64,000 nucleotides of DNA from Burkholderiaceae bacterium (GTDB lineage: Bacteria; Pseudomonadota; Gammaproteobacteria; Burkholderiales; Burkholderiaceae): contig JAVKLU010000020.1 in NCBI GenBank assembly GCA_031538895.1, positions 108 through 64,107 on the forward strand, written 5' to 3'. The position numbers and the translations under genes were made by a program. The number at the start of each line of letters is the position of its first letter. Within the stretch, counting starts at the first letter, position 1. Positions 29,217 through 39,242 of the stretch are shown in pieces. Under the pieces are notes generated by a model. It did not search any database and had not been told where the DNA came from. It saw only the letters and a program-made list of their open reading frames with translations.

Positions 29217-29447
29217 ATGAACTCAAAACTGACATGGCACGAACCAAAGAGACAAGCGGCGTTAGCTGAGCGTGGTCTTGACTTTGCTGATGCCAACCAG
29301 ATTTTTGCCAGCGCGACGTTTGAGTATGAGGATACGCGAGAAAACTATGGCGAAAAACGCATGATTTGTTTTGGCTACCTGTACGGTCGTTTGACAGTGC
29401 TTGGTTATGTTCAACGTGACGATGATCGTCATATTTTTTCAACGTGA
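29217..29447 (+). pseudogene. brnT: BrnT-family (DUF497) toxin, C-terminally truncated by a tandem duplication
   Basis: WHEPKRQAALAERGLDFADA..IF......EDTRENYGEKR is BrnT-like. The conserved C-terminal R.I.S.RKA motif (RHIFSMRKANERE) is only readable in a different frame after a 28-bp duplication. Confidence 0.65.
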
Positions 29448-29482: not shown

Positions 29483-29839
29483 ATGAACGCGAACAATCAA
29501 AATTTGGGTAGTGATATGGCAAGAGTGGATGCACACGAGATTGCCCCGCAAGAGTACGACGTGCTTCCCGAACTGACGCAAGCCGACCTTGCTCGCGGGG
29601 TTTGGAAGGTTGCGGGTAAAGAGGTAACGCCAGCAGAGGGCAAAGCGGCTTTTCGTTCGGCACTGAAAAAGCAAAAAATCAACATCACCCTTGACCCCGA
29701 CGTGCTGGGTTGGTATCGCTCGCAGGCTGGCGGTCGTGGCTATCAAACGCTGATCAACGCCACGCTTCGAGAGGCCATGACGACCCACACGATAGAGGAC
29801 ACTGTGCGGCGCGTTATCCGCGAGGAACTACACCGCTAA
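29483..29839 (+). CDS. brnA: BrnA-family antitoxin
   Basis: 118 aa directly downstream of brnT. The C-terminal block KQKINITLDPDVLGWYRSQAGGRGYQTLINATLREAM matches the BrnA/DUF4415-type pattern. Confidence 0.7.
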   Translation: MNANNQNLGSDMARVDAHEIAPQEYDVLPELTQADLARGVWKVAGKEVTPAEGKAAFRSALKKQKINITLDPDVLGWYRSQAGGRGYQTLINATLREAMTTHTIEDTVRRVIREELHR

Positions 29840-29890
29840 ATTTGCCCCCGCCCCGCCTCTGCCCCCTCCCCGCCCTGCGGGCAACCCAAA

Positions 29891-29903
29891 GCGGCTACGC
29901 CGC
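29891..29903 (-). promoter_or_regulatory. short GC hairpin 3' of VR2 (candidate DGR target-recognition hairpin)
   Basis: GCGGC-TAC-GCCGC, located 5 nt beyond the stop codon of target 2. An analogous hairpin sits in the same position after VR1. Confidence 0.5.
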
Positions 29904-29907
29904 CCAA

Positions 29908-30438
29908 TCACTGACTGGCACGCACCAACCGAACTTGGCCGTAGTAGCCGTAGCGGTTGCCGTCGCCGACCTTGCCGTAGCCGAAATCGACGACCCAGGC
30001 GTAGCCGCTAGTGCCCACATACGGCGAAGATGACCAGTACCAGTTGCTGGGCGTGCTTGGAAAGGCCGTGCTGTCGATGCTGGGGTTTTGGCAACCCTTG
30101 TCGGCGAGACTGGTCAGCTCTTTCACATTGGGCAGACGCCAACCAGTCGTGCTGTTTGCGGTGTTGGCACTTTTGGCCCGGACCAGCGCTTGCTCGTGTG
30201 TATAACTTGCTGCCGTGCCGGTGCAGCTGCTGCCGCTCAGGGTTTGGCCCTCGCTGCAGCGCTTCCACACCAAGCCGGTGCGCGTGTCGGTCACCTCCTC
30301 GCCGCTGATGCTGAAGCGCTCTGCGGTGGGCCAGCTGGGGCAGGCGGCATGGGCTTTTAGGGCGGTGGCGCTCAGGGTTGCCGCCACCAGGGCCATGCAC
30401 AGCATGGGGGCCGCAGCCCGTGTCATTGAGTGTTTCAT
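29908..30438 (-). CDS. secreted DUF1566-like (Lcl C-terminal/C-type-lectin-fold) protein, DGR target 2
   Basis: Strong SD (AAGGAG) before the ATG at 30438 and a signal peptide MKHSMTRAAAPMLCMALVAATLSATALKAHA. GWRLPNVKEL motif, with the C-terminus carrying VR2 (…SSPYVGTSGYAWVVDFGYGKVGDGNRYGYYGQVRLVRASQ). Confidence 0.8.
   Translation of the reverse strand: MKHSMTRAAAPMLCMALVAATLSATALKAHAACPSWPTAERFSISGEEVTDTRTGLVWKRCSEGQTLSGSSCTGTAASYTHEQALVRAKSANTANSTTGWRLPNVKELTSLADKGCQNPSIDSTAFPSTPSNWYWSSSPYVGTSGYAWVVDFGYGKVGDGNRYGYYGQVRLVRASQ
29913..30032 (-). repeat. DGR variable region VR2 (120 nt)
   Basis: Aligns to TR end to end. Differences lie at TR adenines, except one C/G site at 29971, with one extra codon. 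Confidence 0.85.
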
Positions 30439-31850
30439 GTGATCTCCTTGAAATAAAAATCGGTGATTTCCCGCCGTCGTGTGCCGTGTTTGAGCCAGCC
30501 GGTTTGCACTGCCTGTACCCGGCTGCCGTCGGGTGTTTGCAGGGGTGCAAAGCGCAGCCATTCAAAGCCCTTTTGCACCTCGCACACCGCATGCGGCCAC
30601 TGCTGGCGCAGCCAGGCCACTTGCTCGGCCAGCGTGGTGCCTTGCAACACCCAACGCGGGGCAATCTGCCCAGCGGGGTTGATGTGAAACAAGGCCCGCA
30701 GCCAGCCGTAACGCGCAAACAAGGCATGGCTCAAGCGCACGCTGTGTGCATGGGCAAAGTGCCCCCAATAGCTGGCCAGCACGTGCTGCAACTGCGCCAG
30801 CTGCTGGGCGCTGGTGTAGATGCCACCACCCCGGCAATGGCGGGCGGCCCATTGCGCCAACTTTTGCTTGCAGTGCTGCACCACGCGGCGGCGCACCAGG
30901 CGGTGGTGCGGGTAAACCACGTAGCCCAAAAAGTCCACCCCTGCTTGCAAGGGGGCCACCCGGTGTTCGTCTTTGAGCTTTAAGCGTAAACGTGTTTGTA
31001 AAAAATCTGCAATTTGACTTTGCCACAGGCGCAGCTGCGCGGGGTTGTCGGCCAGCAGCACAAAGTCGTCCACATAGCGCACATAGTGCCGCACCTTGAG
31101 GTTGTGCTTGACAAACTGGTCCAGCTCGTTCAAGTACACATTGGCAAAAAATTGGCTGGTCAGGTTGCCAATAGGTAGGCCGCAACCGGCTGGGGCGTTG
31201 CACAGCCGCTTGTGCGGGGGCACGCGCTGCGCTGCTTCGGGGTTGCGCACGGCTTCTTGCACGGGGTGGGCCAGCAGTTTGTGGCACAGGCTGCGCAGGG
31301 AGGTGTAGATCCCCGCCTTTGCATCCAATTTGGCTGTCAACAACCGGTATAGCGTAGGCCGGTGGATGGTGTTGAAAAAATTGTGCACATCCAGCTGCAA
31401 AAACCAGCCTTGTCCGCCGCAAGCGTTTTGCTGCGCCCGCATGAAGGTTTGCAGCCGGTCTACCGCCGCGTGGCTGCCTTTGCCGCGCCGGTTGGCGTAG
31501 CTGTCGTGAATAAACACCGGCTCATACAGCGCCTCTAGCTGTGGCACCAGCCAGTGGTGCACCACCCGGTCGGCAAAGTCGGGGGCGTGGATTTCGCGGG
31601 TTTTGGGCCGGTTGACCACAAAAGAAACAGTGCGGCGCGGCACCCAGGTGCCTGCGCCCAAATCGGCTTGCAATTGCTGCAAATGCTGCAACCAGCGGCT
31701 GGCAAAACGCAGCTGGTTGGCGCTGGGCTTTTTGCCGCGCCGCGCGGCCAACCACGCGGCATGGCATTGGGCCAGCGACACCCGCACCGGCACCCGGGGG
31801 CTGGCGGTACGCGGGGTCTGAACATTCACGGCTTGCAAGTGGCGCTCCAC
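30435..31850 (-). CDS. DGR reverse transcriptase
   Basis: RT motifs: PKTREIHAPDFADRVVHH, NRRGKGSHAA, FLQLDVHNFF, GLPIGNLTSQFFANVYLNELD (the DGR-typical [IL]G...SQ box), and YVRYVDDFVLL (YxDD). The ORF-track start is a GTG 1 nt from TR, so the true start may be further in. Confidence 0.9.
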   Translation of the reverse strand: MERHLQAVNVQTPRTASPRVPVRVSLAQCHAAWLAARRGKKPSANQLRFASRWLQHLQQLQADLGAGTWVPRRTVSFVVNRPKTREIHAPDFADRVVHHWLVPQLEALYEPVFIHDSYANRRGKGSHAAVDRLQTFMRAQQNACGGQGWFLQLDVHNFFNTIHRPTLYRLLTAKLDAKAGIYTSLRSLCHKLLAHPVQEAVRNPEAAQRVPPHKRLCNAPAGCGLPIGNLTSQFFANVYLNELDQFVKHNLKVRHYVRYVDDFVLLADNPAQLRLWQSQIADFLQTRLRLKLKDEHRVAPLQAGVDFLGYVVYPHHRLVRRRVVQHCKQKLAQWAARHCRGGGIYTSAQQLAQLQHVLASYWGHFAHAHSVRLSHALFARYGWLRALFHINPAGQIAPRWVLQGTTLAEQVAWLRQQWPHAVCEVQKGFEWLRFAPLQTPDGSRVQAVQTGWLKHGTRRREITDFYFKEIT

Positions 31851-31851
31851 A

Positions 31852-31968
31852 GACTGGCACGCACCAACCGAACTTGGTTGTTGTTGTTGCGGTTGTTGTT
31901 GTTGACGTTGCCGTTGTTGAAATTGACGTTCCAGGCGTTGTTGCTATTGCCCACATACGGCGAAGATG
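31852..31968 (-). repeat. DGR template repeat (TR, 117 nt)
   Basis: In the target frame it reads SSPYVG-NSNNAWNVNFNNGNVNNNNRNNNN-QVRLVRAS, with 14 AAC and 2 AAT codons. It lies in the avd-RT intergenic space and has no credible start of its own. Confidence 0.9.
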
Positions 31969-32058
31969 CTGGGCGCACCTTACCACTGCAGCCAATGCCC
32001 CAAGCCAGGGTGTACGCTGGCGAACCCGCTGCGCATCCCAAAGGGTAGCGCCGCATCG

Positions 32059-32589
32059 TCATGGTTGAACCCCATCAGCCGCCCTTGGCGCAAAGCCTGG
32101 CGCTGGTGGGGTGGCACACCCACTCAGTGAAGCGGGGTGGGCCCCAGCCGGTGGCTGGGGCTGTGACCCGGCGCCCCGGTCAGGGGCGACTTGGTTTGGG
32201 CGTTGGCGGCGGGCCAAGGCCTGCCACCAACCGCCGCACTGTTTGCCTATGCCCGCCGCCAAAGTAGCGGCTTGCTCAAAAGCCGCAAAGCTGGGGCTGG
32301 GCTGGCCCTGCTGCCCCTTGTGTGTGCGCGCAAAAGCGCCCACATCCATGGTCAGCTGCAAGCAGAGCTTGTAATCGTCTACCAGCCAGAGCAGCGCCTG
32401 CACATGCTCGCCCTGGCGGGGCTTGTCGTGCACGGCTTTGTTGACTTGCTGCATGATGCCAAAGGCCCGCTGGCGCAAGTCCGTGCCCACGGTGTATTTG
32501 TGGTAACGGGCAAAACGCATGACCATTTGCTCGGTGTGCAGCAGCAAGCGGCGGCAGTCGCGGTAAATGGGGGGCAGTGGTGTGCTCAT
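32059..32589 (-). CDS. avd: Avd-like accessory variability determinant (four-helix-bundle protein)
   Basis: Lies between VR1 and TR. The helical, basic N-terminal ~125 aa (…YRDCRRLLLHTEQMVMRFARYHKYTVGTDLRQRA…AAGIGKQCGGWWQ) resembles the bAvd / 23S-IVS four-helix-bundle family. A P/A/G-rich tail of about 50 aa follows. Confidence 0.75.
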   Translation of the reverse strand: MSTPLPPIYRDCRRLLLHTEQMVMRFARYHKYTVGTDLRQRAFGIMQQVNKAVHDKPRQGEHVQALLWLVDDYKLCLQLTMDVGAFARTHKGQQGQPSPSFAAFEQAATLAAGIGKQCGGWWQALARRQRPNQVAPDRGAGSQPQPPAGAHPASLSGCATPPAPGFAPRAADGVQP

Positions 32590-32605
32590 GATTTACAAAG
32601 CCAAA

Positions 32606-32616
32606 GCGCTTCGCGC
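32606..32616 (-). promoter_or_regulatory. short GC hairpin 3' of VR1
   Basis: GCGC-TTC-GCGC, located 5 nt beyond the stop codon of target 1. The coding strand reads GCGC-GAA-GCGC. Confidence 0.5.
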
Positions 32617-32620
32617 CCAA

Positions 32621-35600
32621 TTACTGACTGGCACGCACCAACCGAACTCGGAGGCCGTCGTAGCGGTAGTAGTAGCCGCGGCTGCTGACGTCGCCGCCGC
32701 CGAAACCGACGTCCCAGGCGTAGTAGCTATCGCCCACATACGGCGAAGATGTCCAGTAATAGCTGTAGCTTGGCGTGTTGGGGAACCAGGTGCCATCCAC
32801 CGTGGGCCCGGGGTAGGCCACGCTGTAGTCCACGATGCTTTGCAGCTCGTCAGCGGTGGGCAAGCGCCAATCGCTGTAGCCGCACAGGCCTCTTGCGTTG
32901 ACGGCATTCACATAACCGTAGGTGTTGGTGGTCGCATCCATTTGCGATTGGGAGCCGTAGTAGCTGCTGTGGTAATTGGTGTAAGTGCCGTTGGGGTCGA
33001 GTGCGGGATTGCCCCTTGTGACACCACTGCCACTGGCCGGTTTGCCCTCCCACATTAAACCCGTGATATTGTCTTTGACGCATTCAGTCAGCGCATAGCT
33101 CCCCACCCTGCTGTAGCTCAAACCCAGCTTGCCGTCGCTGTTGTCATTATTGCTCACGTCGCGGCCCACCATGCCGTCTTGCTGGCTGTTGAGGCTAACG
33201 GCCGCGCTGCTGGTGCAACTGATGAGCGTGTTGCTGCCCGCGCTATAGCATTGGCTGGCGGTGATGCCGGTGTCGGTGAGTTTGCTGGTAGTGTACGCGG
33301 TAATGGTGGCCGACACCAAGGCACTATTGCCGGTGGTGTTGTAAGTGTTGGCTTTGACCAGCGCGCCGGCAGCGTAGGTGCTGCTTGACCTGGTGCTCCA
33401 ACCCCCACTACCACTGGCCACCAATAAGGCGGTACTGTTATCTGGCCAAGTAATTTTGATATTGGCATTATTGGCGGCCGTGCCGCTAACCACCACCGTG
33501 CCATTGGCTTGGGCTGCCGCACTAGTAATGGTGGGCGGAGTGGGGGAATTTTTCGCACAGACCCCACTAGCGTTTAGGCCTTGACCTACTGCACAAACGG
33601 TAAAGGTGTAAGTCTGTGTGCCCAATAAGGTACCCGTTTTATTCGCCCCACCATAATAAGTAATGGTGGCGGCATAACTGCCCGCAGTGTTGATGGTGAT
33701 GCTAATTTTGCCCGCTACCCCCGCACTAACGTTTGCGGTTTGTTCTGTGTAGCCTGTTAATTGCCACGCCACCGAACCTACATTGCTGGGTGCACCCTCT
33801 AACCAAAAATCAACACTGCTGCCTACCGTCACCGTAGGGACGCTGGTTTTGATGGTGGCGTCAAAACCAGCCGTATACAAGTCAGTTGTTTTGGCATTAA
33901 GAATCGCCAATACCGGCTCTGCCATCAAAGTGTCCGTCATTTTTTGCGATCCCTTCAGAATCACGTCTGAACTGATGACAAAAGCTTCGTCGGCACGCGC
34001 ATTCATTTGTTGCCCAATGACATATGCATCTAAAAAACCAGTGACGACATTTAAAGTGCCTTTGGCGTATTGCATCGATACTGAATCAGGAAACATGGCC
34101 AAGGCCGAATTCACCAAATTCAGCCAAACCTGCGCCATAACCATTTTTTCGTTGCTAGCGCTAAGTGTTACGCTGCCCGTAAATACGTCGGCAATCAAAG
34201 CTGCATTGCTCATATTTCCCGCAGATGCAAGACTGCTCACACATTGCAAAGGCACCGTAATCGCGGTAGTAAAATTTTTACTGGTCAGATTGTCATTACT
34301 AATTTCTCGCACTGCCGTTTGGTATTCATTGACTCTGGACTTTACATCAGGACCACAATTGTTGATTAGACTAATGATCTGCGCTGAACGATTCAAAGCA
34401 ATAATGTACTGCACCATTTTTTGCGTATCACTGGTTTGCTGTATAACCTGTGTCCCACCATCCGCCGCGATTGCCGCTACAGGATAGGCTATTTGCAGTA
34501 CCCCCGTAACCGACTTAACCCCAGCTCCAGCAACTGCCAACCAGTCGTTTAGGGCGCCACGTCCATACAAGCCTTGTCCCGTGGCCGACCAATTAGCCTT
34601 GTATAAATCACTACTGAGATATTGATTGAGCGCCGCGAATTGTTCAGCGTAGTTATTTTTAATATAGCTAGTCCGTTCAGTGTCGGGAATACCTGCCAAC
34701 TTTCCGAGTTCACTTTTTCGCTCATTTTCACTTAAACGCTCCCAAACAATACGCTTACCCGAAATAATACTTTTCGCCTTAGCGTTATCGATCATGGCTT
34801 GAATTGTTGCCAATTGTGCGCTTGTCCAAGCGGCTTTATTTTTAACCACTAAATTTTGTGCCGCCATATTGCTAGGTAATGTCAATTCACCGACATTGGC
34901 CCCTGTAAGGACATCATTTTGCAATTGTCTAAAAAGTAAATAGCCCGCATGTAAACACGATACAGTGGTAGCACAACCGTAATTAGGGGACGCCATAAGG
35001 CCCAACTTACCATCATCCGACGAACCCCAATTACCCCGCCCTGTAGTGCTTGAGTGGTAATAACCGCCGGCACGTCCTACCGGTAATTTATTATTGGCTA
35101 TTGTTTGATTGGGACGTATCTCCGGTGTTAGCCCTAACAGCACTTCTGTAACAGTGGCATTACCCACTTTAGCTTGCTGTAGCAGACTATTGCTGCGCGC
35201 CTGCGACGTGTTATTGGCACGAAAACGTTGCCCAGCAAAGCTAATTAAATAATCTCCATCTGACACAAGATTAGATGTGTTCACGCCCAAACCAATACCC
35301 ACATACACGGGAATAGTGGGAAGATTGTTTTCTGAACGGGCAATCGCGGCAGGCAAATAACCCGCCTGCGCATAATTGCCACTTAAGCCAACATCTTGCT
35401 TAGTTTGTTCGGAAAAAGCAGTAACTGGTTTTCCCATTTCATAGCAAGACACCTCCTGACATCCCGGAATAAGTCCTCCCGCAAATTGACCGTCAGGCAA
35501 ACTAATCCCATCAATCACACCATCTGCCGACAAAATTCCGGAATGAGGACTCCCTAAGGTCATTAAGGATGCCACTTTGCCCCCTACCTCTCTATGTGCT

Positions 35601-37036
35601 GTGGCATACCGCGACAGTCCTTGCAACATAGTGCGTGTCAGCACGCCACCAAACGAGTGCGCCACAATGTGCACTTTTTTGCCAGACAACTTATAAATAT
35701 ATTCTACCGTCGTCGCTAAATCATCCGCCGCCAAACGAAAGCTTTGGTTGGTGTACCAATGGAACTCAAAGGGAACCAAATTATTGCCGTTGGGCAATGC
35801 TGTTTGCATCGCCAGCTTAGGAAAGTTGCCCCAAGTACCTTCCCCTCCGCCAATCGTAAGATTAAAACCATGAACAAATAAAATGGGCTCGTACCCATCC
35901 CATTTAAACGAACGAACATCGCCTGTGATGCTGGTCTGTACTTCATAAGCAGGGCGTAGTTCGGTAGTAATGAAGAGTTCTGTCGCATCCTTAATATCGT
36001 TAAAAGTAGATTTGATCTTGTCCAAAACACCAATCCCAGGATCGTTATAACTTGGTAGACCGAAAGTCGGATCCCAAAATCGTTCGGAAACTACATCTAA
36101 AGCCGAATCGAACGCAACTTCATCCCCCTGTAGCACCACTTGCCCTAAGCCATTGCTAATAATAGGTTTAATGCCATTGTTGGCGGTACTGTGAGATACG
36201 TAAGGGTCTTTATTCAGGCTGGGGCTAGAAAATGCTTGTACAACTCTCTGTATTGCTTGGCTTATTCTCGCCAAAATAGACTGGCTACCGACATTCGCAC
36301 TAGATAAAACGCTATAGGGGTCATAAGCCGGTTTTCCTTGAGGTAGGTTAATTTTTATATTTTTATCTAATGCACTTTTCGGCAAAGAAAACTGAATTTT
36401 TTTACCGTTATCGGTATTCGCTACGGTAGTGGCTATTTGCACGGGTGCTTCTAGATTATTTGCAGATATGCTTGCCGTTTTCCCGTCACCAAGGTCAATA
36501 GACGCCCCCTGTGCGCCAAGACTGGTTGTGCTTTGTACAGCCGGTTCTACCACCGTTAGAGTGCCTTTAATGAGTGCGTAATTTTGAGTCTGAACATTGG
36601 TTGCCCTGACCACATAGTCTTGCTTGCCTACTGTTAGTTTTTTAGCATCAATTGTGAAATAGGTTTCGCCGTCTGTGCCTTTGGCTAACTGAGACATTAC
36701 GCCACTATCAAGCGTATACGTAATATCTGCTGGCCGGACGCTAGCTGCATAGCTGGCTTTAACTTGCCCATATACCGCTTGTCCTTTCACTACAGAAGTA
36801 GCGTTATCCAAAATTTGTACACTGAGAAGACCCAAATCTTGGATGTCTACTTGCTTAGCAGCCGTGGTAGGCGTGGTAGGCGTGGTAGGCGTGGTAGGCG
36901 TGGGCGTGGGCGTGGGCGTGGGCGTGGGACACGCGGTCACTAGTCCCACCAAAACACTGGCAATCAAAAACCGCGCAAAGCGTAAAAAACTTGGCGCGCT
37001 TGGTCTGTTTATTTGCGCCCGACGGGCGCGCGTCAT
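32621..37036 (-). CDS. large surface lipoprotein with an alpha/beta-hydrolase (lipase/esterase-like) domain and a C-terminal DUF1566/CLec domain, DGR target 1
   Basis: Lipobox LVTA-C after a hydrophobic segment, then a (TP)n/(TTP)n linker. Hydrolase motifs ILFVHGF and HIVAHSFGG (G/A-x-S-x-G). C-terminal SDWRLPTADEL motif and VR1 (…SSPYVGDSYYAWDVGFGGGDVSSRGYYYRYDGLRVRLVRASQ). Confidence 0.85.
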   Translation of the reverse strand: MTRARRAQINRPSAPSFLRFARFLIASVLVGLVTACPTPTPTPTPTPTTPTTPTTPTTAAKQVDIQDLGLLSVQILDNATSVVKGQAVYGQVKASYAASVRPADITYTLDSGVMSQLAKGTDGETYFTIDAKKLTVGKQDYVVRATNVQTQNYALIKGTLTVVEPAVQSTTSLGAQGASIDLGDGKTASISANNLEAPVQIATTVANTDNGKKIQFSLPKSALDKNIKINLPQGKPAYDPYSVLSSANVGSQSILARISQAIQRVVQAFSSPSLNKDPYVSHSTANNGIKPIISNGLGQVVLQGDEVAFDSALDVVSERFWDPTFGLPSYNDPGIGVLDKIKSTFNDIKDATELFITTELRPAYEVQTSITGDVRSFKWDGYEPILFVHGFNLTIGGGEGTWGNFPKLAMQTALPNGNNLVPFEFHWYTNQSFRLAADDLATTVEYIYKLSGKKVHIVAHSFGGVLTRTMLQGLSRYATAHREVGGKVASLMTLGSPHSGILSADGVIDGISLPDGQFAGGLIPGCQEVSCYEMGKPVTAFSEQTKQDVGLSGNYAQAGYLPAAIARSENNLPTIPVYVGIGLGVNTSNLVSDGDYLISFAGQRFRANNTSQARSNSLLQQAKVGNATVTEVLLGLTPEIRPNQTIANNKLPVGRAGGYYHSSTTGRGNWGSSDDGKLGLMASPNYGCATTVSCLHAGYLLFRQLQNDVLTGANVGELTLPSNMAAQNLVVKNKAAWTSAQLATIQAMIDNAKAKSIISGKRIVWERLSENERKSELGKLAGIPDTERTSYIKNNYAEQFAALNQYLSSDLYKANWSATGQGLYGRGALNDWLAVAGAGVKSVTGVLQIAYPVAAIAADGGTQVIQQTSDTQKMVQYIIALNRSAQIISLINNCGPDVKSRVNEYQTAVREISNDNLTSKNFTTAITVPLQCVSSLASAGNMSNAALIADVFTGSVTLSASNEKMVMAQVWLNLVNSALAMFPDSVSMQYAKGTLNVVTGFLDAYVIGQQMNARADEAFVISSDVILKGSQKMTDTLMAEPVLAILNAKTTDLYTAGFDATIKTSVPTVTVGSSVDFWLEGAPSNVGSVAWQLTGYTEQTANVSAGVAGKISITINTAGSYAATITYYGGANKTGTLLGTQTYTFTVCAVGQGLNASGVCAKNSPTPPTITSAAAQANGTVVVSGTAANNANIKITWPDNSTALLVASGSGGWSTRSSSTYAAGALVKANTYNTTGNSALVSATITAYTTSKLTDTGITASQCYSAGSNTLISCTSSAAVSLNSQQDGMVGRDVSNNDNSDGKLGLSYSRVGSYALTECVKDNITGLMWEGKPASGSGVTRGNPALDPNGTYTNYHSSYYGSQSQMDATTNTYGYVNAVNARGLCGYSDWRLPTADELQSIVDYSVAYPGPTVDGTWFPNTPSYSYYWTSSPYVGDSYYAWDVGFGGGDVSSRGYYYRYDGLRVRLVRASQ
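32626..32751 (-). repeat. DGR variable region VR1 (126 nt)
   Basis: Aligns to TR with invariant ends. All substitutions I can see are at TR adenines. It is three codons longer than TR. Confidence 0.85.
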
Positions 37037-37043
37037 TAGGGGA

Positions 37044-37136
<93 letters not shown>

Positions 37137-37487: not shown

Positions 37488-39242
37488 ATGTCCAAGGAAA
37501 CCTTTATCACCAGCAAAGACGCCTCTTTAGAAAGCTCTATCCGCGTGTTGAGCGCGCAATTACTCGCGCTTGGTTTTCACATCGAAGAACGCTCATGGTT
37601 AAACGATGTTAAGGGCATTTGGTCAGTCCATATCAGCGATCGCGATTGTCCACGTTTGTTTAGCAATGGCAAAGGGGCCAGTCAATTGGCCGCACGCGCA
37701 TCCGCCTTGGGCGAGTATTTTGAACGTTTGGGAACCCATTATTTTTGGACCCATTTTTATTTAGGGGCAAAAAATGCCGTCAAGGAATTTGTCCATTACC
37801 CCAATGAAAAGTGGTTTCCACTATCCGACAAAACAGATCAATGGCCAAAAGAGATTTTGACGCCAGAGTTGCAAAAATTTTATAACCCAGATGGTGCGGT
37901 ATTGGCAAGTCAATTAGTTGATTTGAATTCAGGCTCCACTGCGCGCGGCATTTGCGCCATTCCTTATCAAAGGCTACGCGACGACGCGAGGGTTTATTTT
38001 CCCGTCAACCTGATTGGCAATTTATACGTCAGCAATGGCATGTCAGCGGGCAATACCAAAATCGAAGCACGCACGCAAGCCTTGTCTGAAATTTTTGAGC
38101 GTTACATCAAATTTCACATCATCAAAGACGGCCTGTGTTTGCCCGACGTGCCTGCGACTGTACTGGCGCGCTATCCACAGATTCAAGCAGGGATAGACGG
38201 ATTGCGCGCCGCAGGATATGGCATTTTGGTGAAAGATGCGTCTTTGGGTGGCCAATATCCCGTCATGTGCGTGACGCTGTTAAACCCCACAGATCAAGGT
38301 TGCTTTGCCAGTTTTGGGGCGCATCCGCGTTTTGAAGTCGCGCTAGAACGCGCACTGACCGAGCTTTTGCAAGGACGAGCGATTGACGATCTCACCGGTT
38401 TTGCCGAACCCGGATTTGATATGACCGAAATTGCTGACGCGCAAAATTTAGAAATTCATTTTGTTGATTCCAGTGGCGTGATTAGTTGGAATTTTTTGCG
38501 CAATACGCCAGATTACGAACTTGTCGATTGGAATTTTTCTCACACCACGCAACAGGATTACGACTGGTGCGTGAACACAATTCACGCCTGCCACAGTGAC
38601 GCGGGCTCCGGCGAAATCTATGTCGCTGATTTTGAACATTTGGGTGTTTACACCTGCCGCATTTTGGTGCCAGGCATATCAGAGATTTATCCCATTGAGG
38701 AATTGCAATGGCAAAACAATAGCGTGGGAAATTTAGTCCGTCCCGCCCTGCTGGACCTCCCCAATTTAAGCGTCACGGCGTGTCGCGAGTTATTAGACAC
38801 TTTTTTGGAACTCGACTTGGCCGACGAGTTGCCACTGACCACACTGATCGGTCTGGCCGCTGACCCAAACACTATTTGGGCGACGATGCGCGTGGGTGAG
38901 ATCAAAGCTTTGCTGGGCATTGCGGTCAAAGATCATGAGGTTATTTTGGACGCGTGTTCTTGGATTCGTCAGTTTGGTCAAATGACCGAAGAGCGCGCAC
39001 GCGTCTATCGTTGTATCGCCAACATTGTGCAATTGGAAGACGAAATGGAAACACTCTATGACTTTATCGATCAATTGCAATTGATTTACGGCGCACCAAC
39101 ATTCGCACAAGCGCAGAAATTACTGGGCGGTCAAAGTGTGGGCAGCGAGCGATTTTTTGGTCTTAATACGCTGGGGCCCAATATGGAAGGCAGCCAAATG
39201 CACACACAGATTTTGATCGCGTATGACAAGGTACTGGGATAA
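37488..39242 (+). CDS. ycaO: YcaO-type protein
   Basis: 584 aa, collinear with E. coli YcaO from the N-terminus (…KDASLESSI…LGFHIEERSWLN…WSVHI.D..C…SNGKGAS…A.ASALGEYFERL). Confidence 0.9.
   Translation: MSKETFITSKDASLESSIRVLSAQLLALGFHIEERSWLNDVKGIWSVHISDRDCPRLFSNGKGASQLAARASALGEYFERLGTHYFWTHFYLGAKNAVKEFVHYPNEKWFPLSDKTDQWPKEILTPELQKFYNPDGAVLASQLVDLNSGSTARGICAIPYQRLRDDARVYFPVNLIGNLYVSNGMSAGNTKIEARTQALSEIFERYIKFHIIKDGLCLPDVPATVLARYPQIQAGIDGLRAAGYGILVKDASLGGQYPVMCVTLLNPTDQGCFASFGAHPRFEVALERALTELLQGRAIDDLTGFAEPGFDMTEIADAQNLEIHFVDSSGVISWNFLRNTPDYELVDWNFSHTTQQDYDWCVNTIHACHSDAGSGEIYVADFEHLGVYTCRILVPGISEIYPIEELQWQNNSVGNLVRPALLDLPNLSVTACRELLDTFLELDLADELPLTTLIGLAADPNTIWATMRVGEIKALLGIAVKDHEVILDACSWIRQFGQMTEERARVYRCIANIVQLEDEMETLYDFIDQLQLIYGAPTFAQAQKLLGGQSVGSERFFGLNTLGPNMEGSQMHTQILIAYDKVLG

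What the first reader, a model, noticed from the sequence alone, without database searches (positions are those of the whole stretch)
32621..37036. DGR target is a giant lipoprotein carrying a lipase/esterase-type alpha/beta-hydrolase domain
After a lipobox (LVTA-C) and a Thr/Pro linker come Ig-like beta-rich segments. Next is a clear alpha/beta-hydrolase core: the oxyanion-type ILFVHGF and the nucleophile elbow HIVAHSFGG, encoded around 35645-35680. A long helical region follows, then more beta-rich repeats, and finally the DUF1566/CLec-type VR domain. This pairs a hypervariable binding module with a catalytic hydrolase on one surface-tethered polypeptide. It suggests a retargetable enzyme, for example degrading or modifying whatever the variable domain binds. 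Most described DGR targets are pure binding proteins.
Basis: partly seen in the sequence, partly recalled or inferred. Interest (0 to 1): 0.65.

Follow-up and report, generated by a model that had tools for sequence, protein, structure and literature searches.

The report
DGR-diversified surface lipoprotein with lipase
A 1,471-residue bacterial lipoprotein joins a lipase-type enzyme domain to a tip domain that a retroelement keeps rewriting; the same pairing recurs in many uncultured bacteria, which hints at an enzyme that can be re-aimed, though no activity has been shown.

Summary
ORF 37036..32621 (-) encodes a 1,471-aa protein with a lipobox (VTA-C36) and a Thr/Pro linker. It also has a confidently modelled alpha/beta-hydrolase domain (aa ~351-722), a helical region with no known relatives, Ig/PKD-like sandwiches and a C-terminal Lcl_C/DUF1566 domain.

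That last domain carries the variable region of a canonical DGR: avd, TR, RT and a second small target. VR1 differs from the TR at 22 sites, all TR adenines. VR2 differs at 21 sites, 20 of them adenines.

In 176 relatives, Ser461 (AHSFGG) and Asp595 (GDxLISFAGQRF) never change. Two histidines (661, 696) are nearly invariant, and I could not tell which one is catalytic.

The hydrolase defines an undescribed family of at least 355 clusters at 50% identity. About 31% of sampled members end in a CLec-type module (DUF1566, Fib_succ_major or FGE-sulfatase). An unrelated FGE/HRDC-type DGR in a Lentisphaerae MAG diversifies another member.

"Retargetable enzyme" is therefore plausible and recurrent, but it is not shown. 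DGR targets with enzyme domains have been noted before.

One extra finding: a perfect (CAAG)16.5 repeat lies in a leader ORF 10 nt upstream of the start codon. It has 11.5, 14.5 or 16.5 copies in different assemblies, which suggests phase-variable expression.

The parts
37044..37136 (-). Leader ORF MKKTSSLL(QASK)n. It starts at an ATG with AGGA 8 nt upstream, reads through the tetranucleotide repeat, and stops 7 nt before the target's ATG in this allele.
   Evidence: Translation of the window and of three other assemblies. In the 14- and 11-unit alleles the leader stops at a TAA that overlaps the main ATG (TAATG). With 12, 15 or 18 units it would be fused in frame to the lipoprotein.
37047..37112 (-). 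Perfect (CAAG)16.5 simple-sequence repeat that ends 10 nt upstream of the target's start codon.
   Evidence: TRF reports 100% matches, and it is the only 4-nt array in the 64-kb window. There are 14.5 copies in L001 and L050 and 11.5 in L051.
32621..37036 (-). DGR target gene encoding a 1,471-aa multidomain lipoprotein.
   Evidence: It is collinear with homologues P0001 (96% identity) and P0002 (45%) over the full length.
36929..37036 (-). Signal peptide with lipobox L-V-T-A-C36.
   Evidence: The sequence itself. It is the only strongly hydrophobic segment. All 12 full-body homologues have an xxx-C-G-G lipobox at the same place.
36857..36928 (-). Thr/Pro linker encoded by in-frame repeats: (CCCACG)5.3 plus a 9-nt unit x4.6.
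   Evidence: The sister strain has (GGCGGT)3.8, i.e. poly-Gly, at this place instead.
35987..36856 (-). N-terminal region (aa 61-350) of unknown fold, conserved in the full-body subfamily.
   Evidence: 29-34% identity to P0002-P0005. No Pfam hit. Not modelled.
34871..35986 (-). Lipase-like alpha/beta-hydrolase domain (aa 351-722). Oxyanion H389-G390 at 35867-35872. Nucleophile S461 at 35654-35656. Acid D595 at 35252-35254. Candidate bases H661 (35054-35056) and H696 (34949-34951). Cysteine pairs at 526/531 and 688/694.
   Evidence: Conservation across 176 members is.
33878..34870 (-). Helical region (aa 723-1053) with helices up to about 65 residues and no detectable relatives outside 12 proteins.
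   Evidence: AF2 pLDDT about 78. No PDB sequence hit, no fold hit and no Pfam hit. Only P0001-P0012 cover it.
33083..33877 (-). Beta-sandwich (Ig/PKD-like) modules, aa 1054-1318.
   Evidence: The AF2 strands for aa 1054-1165 match PKD, FN3 and CARDB domains in Foldseek (probability 1.0, TM on the target 0.5-0.65). Residues 1166-1318 were not modelled. There is one cysteine pair per module.
32624..33082 (-). Lcl_C/DUF1566 (CLec-type) domain, aa 1319-1471.
   Evidence: Pfam PF07603, E 3.2e-27.
32626..32751 (-). VR1 (126 nt; 9 nt longer than the TR).
   Evidence: All 22 mismatches fall on TR adenines.
32059..32589 (-). avd-like accessory gene (176 aa).
   Evidence: NCBIfam DivGenRetAVD, E 1.7e-4 but below its cut-off. 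It is 53-59% identical to the genes that follow homologous targets in L002 and L010.
31852..31968 (-). Template repeat (117 nt) with 38 adenines and 16 AAY codons.
30435..31850 (-). DGR reverse transcriptase (471 aa) with the IGNLTSQ and YVDD motifs.
   Evidence: RVT_1, E 1.5e-16. The motifs are read from the translation.
29908..30561 (-). Second, small DGR target (at most 217 aa) with an Lcl_C domain. VR2 is at 29913-30032 (120 nt; 3 nt longer than the TR).
   Evidence: Lcl_C, E 7.9e-32. 20 of 21 mismatches fall on TR adenines.

Best explanation
What is shown. The gene encodes a Sec-type lipoprotein precursor. Its mature part strings together a Thr/Pro spacer, an unassigned N-terminal region, and a lipase-family alpha/beta-hydrolase with an intact nucleophile elbow (A-H-S461-F-G), an oxyanion H-G and an invariant Asp595. 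Two near-invariant histidines follow, then a long helical region, Ig/PKD-like sandwiches and a C-terminal DUF1566 CLec domain. The last 126 nt of that domain are the variable region of an adjacent, apparently intact DGR (avd, TR, RT, second target).

What is inferred. The protein is lipidated at Cys36 and displayed on the outer membrane, as the Legionella DGR target LdtA is. The helical and Ig part acts as a stalk that holds out the hypervariable lectin tip. The DGR rewrites 16 AAY codons, about 15^16 possible tips. Binding of the tip to a ligand on another surface (a cell, vesicle, particle or host) brings the Ser-Asp-His esterase, most likely a lipase, phospholipase or deacylase, to acyl-ester substrates there. 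The specificity of a fixed enzyme would then be re-aimed by mutagenic retrohoming.

Expression may also be switched by slippage of the (CAAG)n tract in a leader ORF just upstream.
For: Architecture.

Catalytic residues: Ser461, Asp595 and Gly390 are present in 176/176 family members. His389 is present in 172/176. His661 is present in 164 of 165 aligned members and His696 in 154 of 158.

Closest sequence and fold relatives are lipid esterases: Staphylococcus lipase 2, Burkholderia and Pseudomonas lipases, B. subtilis LipA, BlEst2 and LPLA2/LCAT.

Extracytoplasmic location: a single N-terminal hydrophobic segment, the lipobox, and cysteines in one or two pairs per domain.

Canonical DGR.

Recurrence of the enzyme-plus-binder design: the 12 full-body homologues keep the lipobox, hydrolase and helical body but end in DUF1566, LamG, C-type lectin or beta-propeller modules. 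Of 176 hydrolase-family members, 55 end in CLec-type modules.

DGR hallmarks next to relatives: L014 has an FGE-sulfatase VR, a TR with 86% A-mismatches, HRDC and an RT. L021 has a TR/VR pair with 93% A-mismatches and an avd-like gene. L002, L010 and L047 have avd after the target. P0006, L018, L044 and L046 each have a small Lcl_C gene after the big one.

LdtA precedent: PMC5758913.

SSR polymorphism and leader ORF.
Against: No biochemical evidence exists for any member. The catalytic histidine is ambiguous. Structural similarity to solved lipases is local only (TM about 0.3), and the Asp/His half does not align to any solved structure by sequence.

Single-sequence Pfam scores are marginal. 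Surface exposure is assumed from LdtA. Nothing links binding to catalysis.

Most family members (121 of 176) have no CLec module, and some close homologues (P0003, P0005) have no RT nearby, so the enzyme works without a DGR.

Both VRs differ in length from the TR (+9 and +3 nt). The sister strain's cassette has no avd and no detectable TR, so ongoing diversification is not proven.

dN/dS of the hydrolase against the sister strain is 0.5 from few changes, which is uninformative.
Confidence: 0.5

Rival explanations
1. Adhesin with an independent housekeeping enzyme. The hydrolase works on the cell's own envelope, on exopolymer, or on dissolved and particulate lipid nutrients. The variable tip is simply an adhesin. 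The two modules share a polypeptide for export and anchoring only, with no targeting relationship.
For: The same hydrolase body occurs with non-variable modules (LamG, lectin_C, RCC1, beta-propeller) and without any DGR. 121 of 176 family members lack a CLec module. A second, enzyme-free DUF1566 target is diversified by the same TR.
Against: Nearly every C-terminal partner is a binding-type module. This is the pattern seen in enzymes that use appended binding modules for substrate proximity. Three CLec subtypes are fused repeatedly and independently to this one hydrolase family.
Confidence: 0.25
2. Contact-dependent weapon. The hydrolase is a phospholipase toxin domain, the helical region inserts into or crosses a target membrane, and the DGR tip is a receptor-binding domain that tracks variable receptors on competitors or prey, as phage Mtd does.
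For: The domain has a lipase and phospholipase-like family affinity. The helical region has moderately hydrophobic helices and no known fold. The CLec domain plus DGR cassette has been exchanged between strains that are 97-99% identical elsewhere, and the SSR switching is typical of conflict or contingency loci.
Against: No immunity-like gene is conserved next to homologues. No segment in the helical region reaches transmembrane-grade hydrophobicity. The protein is tethered by a lipid anchor. No similarity to known effector families was found.
Confidence: 0.12
3. Fossil or inactive system. The hydrolase is a pseudoenzyme scaffold and/or the DGR no longer rewrites VR1, so the architecture is a relic.
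For: VR and TR lengths differ. The sister strain has no avd and no detectable TR, and only a 41-aa gene is called where its small target lies. L047 has only a truncated RT. Pfam scores for the single sequence are marginal.
Against: Ser, Asp, the oxyanion Gly and both histidines are conserved across 176 diverse members. RT, avd and TR are intact in the window. VR1 has 0 and VR2 has 1 non-adenine difference from the TR over about 117 nt, which argues for recent homing.
Confidence: 0.1

Closest known systems
Legionella pneumophila DGR target LdtA (DUF1566-type, category 'd' / CLec2 of Wu et al. 2018, PMC5758913)
   Same: A lipoprotein signal, a C-terminal DUF1566/Lcl_C domain that carries the VR, and a chromosomal DGR with an avd-type accessory gene. 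[quoted passage not shown]
   Different: LdtA has not been described with a catalytic domain. This protein is 1,471 aa and has a lipase-like hydrolase, a roughly 330-aa helical region and Ig-like modules between the anchor and the VR domain. Surface display was not tested here.
Bacterial family I 'true' lipases and relatives (B. subtilis LipA, Burkholderia/Pseudomonas LipA, Staphylococcus lipase 2, B. licheniformis BlEst2; Pfam Lipase_2, DUF676, PGAP1, LCAT, Palm_thioest)
   Same: The alpha/beta-hydrolase core; HG oxyanion motif after the first core strand; an A/G-H-S-x-G nucleophile elbow; a G-[ST]-P-H-x-G motif after the next strand; and an Asp in a G-D-x-L-I-S context that resembles the N-D-G-L-V motif of lipases (the last comparison is from memory).
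   Different: Only the N-terminal half aligns. Foldseek TM is about 0.3. There is an insertion of about 80 aa between core strands and a 62-aa loop after the last core strand that holds two conserved histidines and a Cys-x5-Cys pair. The Pfam gathering scores of Lipase_2, PGAP1, LCAT and Palm_thioest are not reached. The domain is embedded in a giant multidomain lipoprotein.
DGR targets with appended enzymatic or signalling domains (protease-, kinase-, NTPase- and metallophosphatase-containing targets, PMC5758913; an 'alpha/beta hydrolase fold' product mentioned in PMC11661182; conflict-system sensors, PMC10907252)
   Same: The concept: a hypervariable CLec module joined to an effector or enzymatic module on one polypeptide.
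   Different: Those are mostly cytoplasmic signalling or conflict architectures. None of the papers searched describes a lipase-family hydrolase on a DUF1566 lipoprotein, nor a family-wide recurrence of this kind.
Modular extracellular enzymes with appended binding modules (carbohydrate-binding-module logic)
   Same: A catalytic domain plus exchangeable binding modules (LamG, lectin_C, Fib_succ_major, DUF1566, FGE-type CLec) within one family.
   Different: In this case one class of binding module is rewritten by a retroelement instead of being fixed.
Simple-sequence contingency loci of Haemophilus and Neisseria (tetranucleotide repeats in 5' coding or leader regions)
   Same: A perfect 4-nt tract of at least 11 units at the 5' end of a surface-protein gene. 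Copy number is polymorphic among close strains, and it changes the reading frame of an upstream-initiated ORF.
   Different: None of the four alleles seen puts the upstream ATG in frame with the lipoprotein. Which frame gives expression is unknown. The combination with a DGR target was not found in the papers searched.

Membership tests
Diversity-generating retroelement (DGR) | A TR/VR pair whose differences fall almost only on TR adenines | tested here: met
   VR1 22/22 and VR2 20/21 mismatches at TR adenines. The TR is 32% A. Binomial P is 1.8e-11 and 2.5e-9.
Diversity-generating retroelement (DGR) | An adjacent reverse transcriptase of the DGR type ([LIV]GxxxSQ motif, YxDD) | tested here: met
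   RVT_1, E 1.5e-16. IGNLTSQ and YVDD were read in the translation. That these motifs are DGR hallmarks rests on established knowledge, not on a test here.
Diversity-generating retroelement (DGR) | The VR lies at the 3' end of the target gene within a CLec-type fold | tested here: met
   VR1 is the last 126 nt before the stop codon, inside Pfam Lcl_C aa 1319-1468. The CLec fold of DUF1566 is taken from the literature (PMC5758913, PMC11661182).
Diversity-generating retroelement (DGR) | An accessory variability determinant (Avd) | tested here: inconclusive
   NCBIfam DivGenRetAVD gives E 1.7e-4 and 21.8 bits against a cut-off of 80. The gene's position, and 53-59% identical genes after homologous targets, support the assignment.
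Diversity-generating retroelement (DGR) | Ongoing mutagenic retrohoming (VR heterogeneity within a population) | not testable with these tools
   Contigs from other samples break at the edges of the cassette. The RT protein is not on record elsewhere. The VRs are 9 and 3 nt longer than the TR.
Alpha/beta-hydrolase fold, lipase-like branch | Canonical strand/helix order with the nucleophile at the elbow after the third core strand | tested here: met
   AF2 pLDDT 85, pTM 0.89. Strands lie at model positions 31-40, 68-77, 104-109, 137-143, 225-231 and 276-283, with Ser110 of the model (Ser461) between a strand and a helix. Foldseek probability is 1.0 to BlEst2, LipA and other hydrolases, E down to 3e-6.
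Alpha/beta-hydrolase fold, lipase-like branch | Sm-x-Nu-x-Sm nucleophile motif and an HG oxyanion motif | tested here: met
   A-H-S-F-G-G and H-G-F are present. Ser461 and Gly390 occur in 176/176 members and His389 in 172/176.
Alpha/beta-hydrolase fold, lipase-like branch | A complete Ser-Asp-His triad in catalytic geometry | tested here: inconclusive
   Asp595 occurs in 176/176 members, after the strand where the acid is expected. Two candidate histidines remain. His661 is present in 164 of 165 aligned members. His696 is present in 154 of 158 and sits directly before the last helix. No coordinates were available to measure distances.
Alpha/beta-hydrolase fold, lipase-like branch | Ester-hydrolysing activity | not testable with these tools
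   This needs an enzyme assay.
Pfam DUF676 / DUF900 (putative serine esterases) | Score above the Pfam gathering threshold | tested here: met
   DUF676 scores 22.3 against 20.3 and DUF900 21.9 against 20.5. Both are marginal and cover only aa 385-503.
Pfam Lipase_2, PGAP1, LCAT, Palm_thioest, Abhydrolase_6, DUF7379 | Score above the Pfam gathering threshold | tested here: not met
   15.7/20.3, 18.9/24.3, 20.3/21, 21.3/26.8, 22.7/26.3 and 25.6/33. The domain is a separate, undescribed family: 355 clusters at E<=1e-30.
Bacterial lipoprotein | A signal peptide ending in a lipobox [LVI][ASTVI][GAS]-C | tested here: met
   V-T-A-C36 follows a positively charged n-region and the only strongly hydrophobic stretch. 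The feature is conserved in all 12 full-body homologues.
Bacterial lipoprotein | Lipidation, outer-membrane sorting and surface exposure | not testable with these tools
   Inferred from the LdtA precedent (PMC5758913) and from paired cysteines in each domain.
Simple-sequence contingency (phase-variable) locus | A long perfect short-unit repeat at the 5' end of a gene, with copy number polymorphic among close strains | tested here: met
   (CAAG)16.5 at 100% identity. 14.5, 14.5 and 11.5 copies in three other assemblies with otherwise near-identical flanks.
Simple-sequence contingency (phase-variable) locus | Repeat number switches expression | not testable with these tools
   Only the frame consequences for the leader ORF could be worked out.

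The most novel reading that the evidence does not exclude
This is a member of a widespread, undescribed class of 'programmable' surface enzymes. A fixed lipid esterase is aimed at new targets by DGR rewriting of its lectin tip. In this lineage it is also switched on and off by a tetranucleotide repeat in a leader ORF, and it is re-equipped by swapping the whole CLec-plus-DGR cassette between strains. That would be three stacked variation mechanisms on one effector protein.
Probability: 0.25. Interest if true: 0.85.

Novelty: new variant of a known kind. Interest (0 to 1): 0.62.

Why it matters
DGR biology has been framed mainly around variable binding: phage receptor-binding proteins, adhesins, and more recently cytoplasmic sensors. 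A recurrent fusion of one conserved lipase-like enzyme family to DGR-diversified lectin domains would extend that picture. Hypervariation would be used to redirect a catalytic activity at the cell surface. The fusion is seen with three CLec subtypes and with at least two unrelated DGR lineages.

The idea can be tested directly: esterase assays, S461A, tip swaps and surface labelling. It would also define a new, sizeable hydrolase family (at least 355 clusters at 50% identity) and a helical domain of unknown fold. If it holds, it offers a natural template for engineering retargetable enzymes.

The co-occurrence of an SSR switch with a DGR target is a second, independent point of interest. It bears on how bacteria manage the cost of displaying such proteins.

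Tried and rejected
1. Deciding the catalytic histidine. hhalign of the family profile against B. subtilis LipA aligned only the N-terminal half. The PDB profile search behaved the same way. The structure tool returns no coordinates, so distances could not be measured. Family conservation favours His661 only slightly.

2. Identifying the helical region. The PDB sequence profile gave only designed repeat proteins at E 0.02. Foldseek gave nothing for the helices. Pfam at E<=5 gave only noise.

4. Direct evidence of VR turnover. Look-ups through the neighbouring YcaO and PyrF proteins returned contigs that stop at the SSR or at the BrnA/DGR edge. The RT is not on record under this exact sequence.

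5. Looking for a TR in the sister strain (L001) and in L047. None was found. L047's RT is truncated.

6. dN/dS against the sister strain: too few substitutions to interpret.

7. A hairpin downstream of the VRs: no inverted repeat found.

8. The genome-collection scan did not recover the window's own species. A housekeeping protein (Edd) has only about 60% identity to named Burkholderiales, Neisseriales and gammaproteobacterial sequences, so the host is an uncultured member of the Pseudomonadota.

9. A Tat signal was considered because of the RR in the n-region. I rejected it as unsupported: the RR is not followed by the F-L-K-type consensus and is not conserved in homologues.

10. One literature query was too broad and gave nothing useful.

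Full report
**1. The observation**

The minus-strand ORF 37036..32621 is intact and encodes 1,471 aa. It begins MTRARRAQINRPSAPSFLRFARFLIASVLVGLVTA-C36. That is a charged n-region, the only strongly hydrophobic stretch in the protein, and a lipobox V-T-A-C. A Thr/Pro run follows.

ILFVHGF is aa 384-390. Pfam finds Lcl_C/DUF1566 at aa 1319-1468 (E 3e-27). It also finds a pile of weak alpha/beta-hydrolase hits over aa 385-505. DUF676 and DUF900 are just above their cut-offs. Lipase_2, PGAP1, LCAT, Palm_thioest and others are below theirs.

**2. The DGR is real**

Downstream on the same strand lie four further elements:
- an avd-like gene (32589-32059; weak NCBIfam match);
- an AAC-rich template repeat (31968-31852);
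- a reverse transcriptase (31850-30435; RVT_1 1.5e-16, with IGNLTSQ and YVDD motifs);
- a second, small Lcl_C protein (30561-29908).

With codon-wise gap placement, VR1 (32751-32626) differs from the TR at 22 positions, all TR adenines. VR2 (30032-29913) differs at 21 positions, 20 of them adenines. The binomial P values are 2e-11 and 2e-9, given 32% A in the TR.

The TR encodes 16 Asn (AAY) codons. By the standard AAY argument that gives about 15^16 possible tips. An oddity: VR1 is 9 nt and VR2 3 nt longer than the TR, and all the extra bases lie inside the (AAC)n tracts.

**3. The hydrolase domain**

I aligned the window's aa 352-722 with 26 homologues (A2).
- The profile hits solved bacterial lipases: Staphylococcus lipase 2 at 3e-8, Burkholderia lipases at 2e-7, B. 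subtilis LipA at 1e-6, and LPLA2.
- hhalign to LipA gives 97.3% probability.
- AF2 gives pLDDT 85 and pTM 0.89. The strand-helix order is canonical and Ser461 sits at a strand-to-helix elbow.
- Foldseek returns BlEst2 lipase (3e-6), LipA, L1 lipase, LCAT/LPLA2 and many esterases at probability about 1. TM-scores are only about 0.3, because of large insertions.

Conservation across 176 family members:

| Residue | Present in |
|---|---|
| Ser461 | 176/176 |
| Asp595 (GDxLISFAGQRF) | 176/176 |
| Gly390 | 176/176 |
| His389 | 172/176 |
| His661 (GYxH[ST]) | 164 of 165 aligned |
| His696 (CxHAGY, directly before the last helix) | 154 of 158 aligned |

So the fold and a full complement of catalytic-type residues are present. 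Which histidine completes the triad is unresolved, with a slight preference for His661. Near-conserved cysteine pairs (526/531 and 688/694) and one pair per downstream domain fit an extracytoplasmic protein.

**4. The rest of the protein**

For aa 715-1165, AF2 (13 sequences; pLDDT 78, pTM 0.42) predicts long helices, one of about 65 residues, followed by a beta-sandwich. The sandwich matches PKD, FN3 and CARDB domains. The helical part matches nothing in PDB by sequence or fold, and nothing in Pfam. It is found only in 12 proteins.

**5. Relatives**

A word-indexed search found 53 relatives. Twelve share the whole body: lipobox, N-terminal region, hydrolase, helical region and sandwich. Their C-termini differ: DUF1566 in P0001, P0002, P0006, P0007 and P0008; LamG or discoidin-like, C-type lectin or beta-propeller modules in the others.

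An exhaustive profile search finds 8,242 proteins at E<=1e-3 and 355 at E<=1e-30 among cluster representatives at 50% identity. This is a sizeable family that fits no Pfam model. By local HMMs, 55 of 176 sampled members carry CLec-type modules: 39 DUF1566, 8 Fib_succ_major and 8 FGE-sulfatase. Almost all of these sit at the extreme C-terminus, where DGR VRs lie.

Contexts of relatives:
- P0002 and a Rubrivivax MAG (L010) have avd after the target.
- P0051 (L047) has bAvd, a truncated RT and a small Lcl_C gene.
- P0006, P0008, P0025 and a Hylemonella MAG have a small Lcl_C gene after the big one.
- A Sulfurovum MAG (L021) has a TR/VR pair with 93% adenine mismatches.
- A Lentisphaerae MAG (L014) has the hydrolase fused to an FGE-sulfatase CLec domain whose end is a VR. 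Its TR has 86% adenine mismatches, and HRDC and RT genes follow. That is a different DGR lineage acting on the same enzyme family.
- Homologues without CLec modules (P0003, P0005) have no RT nearby.

**6. Mechanism**

Shown: the architecture, the intact catalytic-type residues, the canonical DGR, and the recurrent pairing of this hydrolase with exchangeable binding modules.

Inferred:
- lipidation and outer-membrane display, as for LdtA (PMC5758913);
- the helical and Ig part acting as a stalk;
- the DGR-diversified tip binding variable ligands and bringing a lipid-type esterase to substrates on the bound surface.

The rivals are an adhesin with an unrelated housekeeping enzyme, a contact-dependent phospholipase weapon, and a relic system. 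All three remain open, and none can be excluded without experiments.

**7. Strain comparison**

A MAG of the same species (GCA_031539125.1, locus L001) is 97-99% identical across the gene up to about position 33050 (aa ~1328, the start of the Lcl_C domain), and 99% identical across pyrF. Between those points it is only about 70% identical. It has no avd and no detectable TR there, and only a 41-aa gene is called where its small target lies.

So the CLec domain plus DGR cassette behaves as an exchangeable unit. The segment 29650-33600 has 61% G+C against 47% elsewhere. The cassette's closest avd and Lcl_C relatives are in high-GC Burkholderiales MAGs.

**8. An unexpected extra**

A perfect (CAAG)16.5 array (37112-37047) ends 10 nt before the start codon. 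It is the only tetranucleotide array in the window. Other assemblies of the species carry 14.5, 14.5 and 11.5 copies.

An upstream ATG, with AGGA 8 nt before it, opens a leader ORF MKKTSSLL(QASK)n that runs through the array.
- In the 11- and 14-unit alleles it ends at a TAA overlapping the main ATG (TAATG).
- In the window's allele it ends 7 nt before the main ATG.
- With 12, 15 or 18 units it would fuse in frame to the lipoprotein.

The main ATG has no Shine-Dalgarno-like sequence. This is the signature of a slipped-strand contingency switch, and its direction is unknown. The linker is also built from in-frame repeats that differ between strains: PT/TTP here, poly-Gly in the sister strain. 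The SSR is lineage-specific and not a family trait.

**9. Novelty**

The major DGR surveys and reviews I could search do not describe a lipase-family hydrolase on a DGR target. Wu et al. list protease-, kinase-, NTPase- and phosphatase-containing targets (PMC5758913). One 2024 survey lists an 'alpha/beta hydrolase fold' among rare target annotations without analysis (PMC11661182). Roux et al. 2021 and a 2023 review do not mention hydrolases.

I rate this a new variant of a known kind: a DGR target with a new, recurrent enzyme-bearing architecture. It comes with an undescribed hydrolase family, a helical domain of unknown fold, and an SSR switch layered on top.

Noticed in passing
window 37047-37136 (minus strand); L001 7933-7990; L050 2396-2453; L051 486-531: A perfect (CAAG)n tract lies inside a short leader ORF immediately upstream of the DGR target's start codon. 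It has 16.5, 14.5, 14.5 and 11.5 copies in four assemblies of the same species. Repeat number decides whether the leader ORF stops at a TAATG overlap, stops 7 nt upstream, or (for n = 12, 15, 18) fuses in frame. This is a candidate phase-variation switch on a DGR target.
   Followed up: yes
window 32626-32751 and 29913-30032 versus TR 31852-31968: Both VRs are longer than the TR (+9 nt and +3 nt). All extra codons lie inside the (AAC)n runs and still look derived from AAC. This suggests slippage during cDNA synthesis or integration, or a recent contraction of the TR. DGR homing is normally described as length-preserving.
   Followed up: partly
window 29650-33050 versus L001 11950-14470: Between two strains that are 97-99% identical on both sides, the Lcl_C domain, RT and small target are only about 70% identical. 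The sister strain has no avd and no detectable TR, and only a 41-aa gene is called where its small target lies. This looks like a cassette exchange followed by decay in one lineage. The region from 29650 to 33600 has 61% G+C against 47% for the rest of the window.
   Followed up: partly
window 36857-36928; L001 8100-8162: The lipoprotein's post-Cys linker is encoded by in-frame 6-nt and 9-nt tandem repeats. It reads PTPTPTPTPTTPTTPTTP in the window and GGGGGGGGDSPTPTTPTTPTT in the sister strain.
   Followed up: partly
window 29217-29447 and 29483-29839 (+): A BrnT/BrnA type II toxin-antitoxin pair (Pfam E about 1e-13 each) sits between pyrF and the DGR cassette. Contigs from several other assemblies end inside or just after it.
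   Followed up: partly
window 37488-39242 (+): A stand-alone YcaO cyclodehydratase-family gene (YcaO plus YcaO_C) is transcribed divergently from the target gene and shares the intergenic region that holds the SSR.
   Followed up: no
L014 8192-14081 (Lentisphaerae MAG CAIQLG010000396.1): A complete second type of DGR (FGE-sulfatase VR, HRDC accessory gene, RT) acts on a 1,313-aa protein that carries the same hydrolase family plus Big_9 and cadherin-like domains. The called ORF runs past the usual VR end, so the 3' end may contain a frameshift.
   Followed up: partly
L021 8240-13028 (Sulfurovum MAG): The hydrolase-to-Lcl_C region is split into six consecutive + strand ORFs in different frames. 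It is probably one large target gene broken by assembly frameshifts. An IS200-like fragment lies where the RT would be expected.
   Followed up: no
L046 1394-2341 and 8777-9142; L007 10900-13932: Relatives of the target sit next to conflict-type genes: a caspase-like Peptidase_C14 and an ECF sigma factor upstream and a TumE-family gene downstream in L046, and a CHAT-domain protein downstream in L007. No partner gene is conserved across loci.
   Followed up: no
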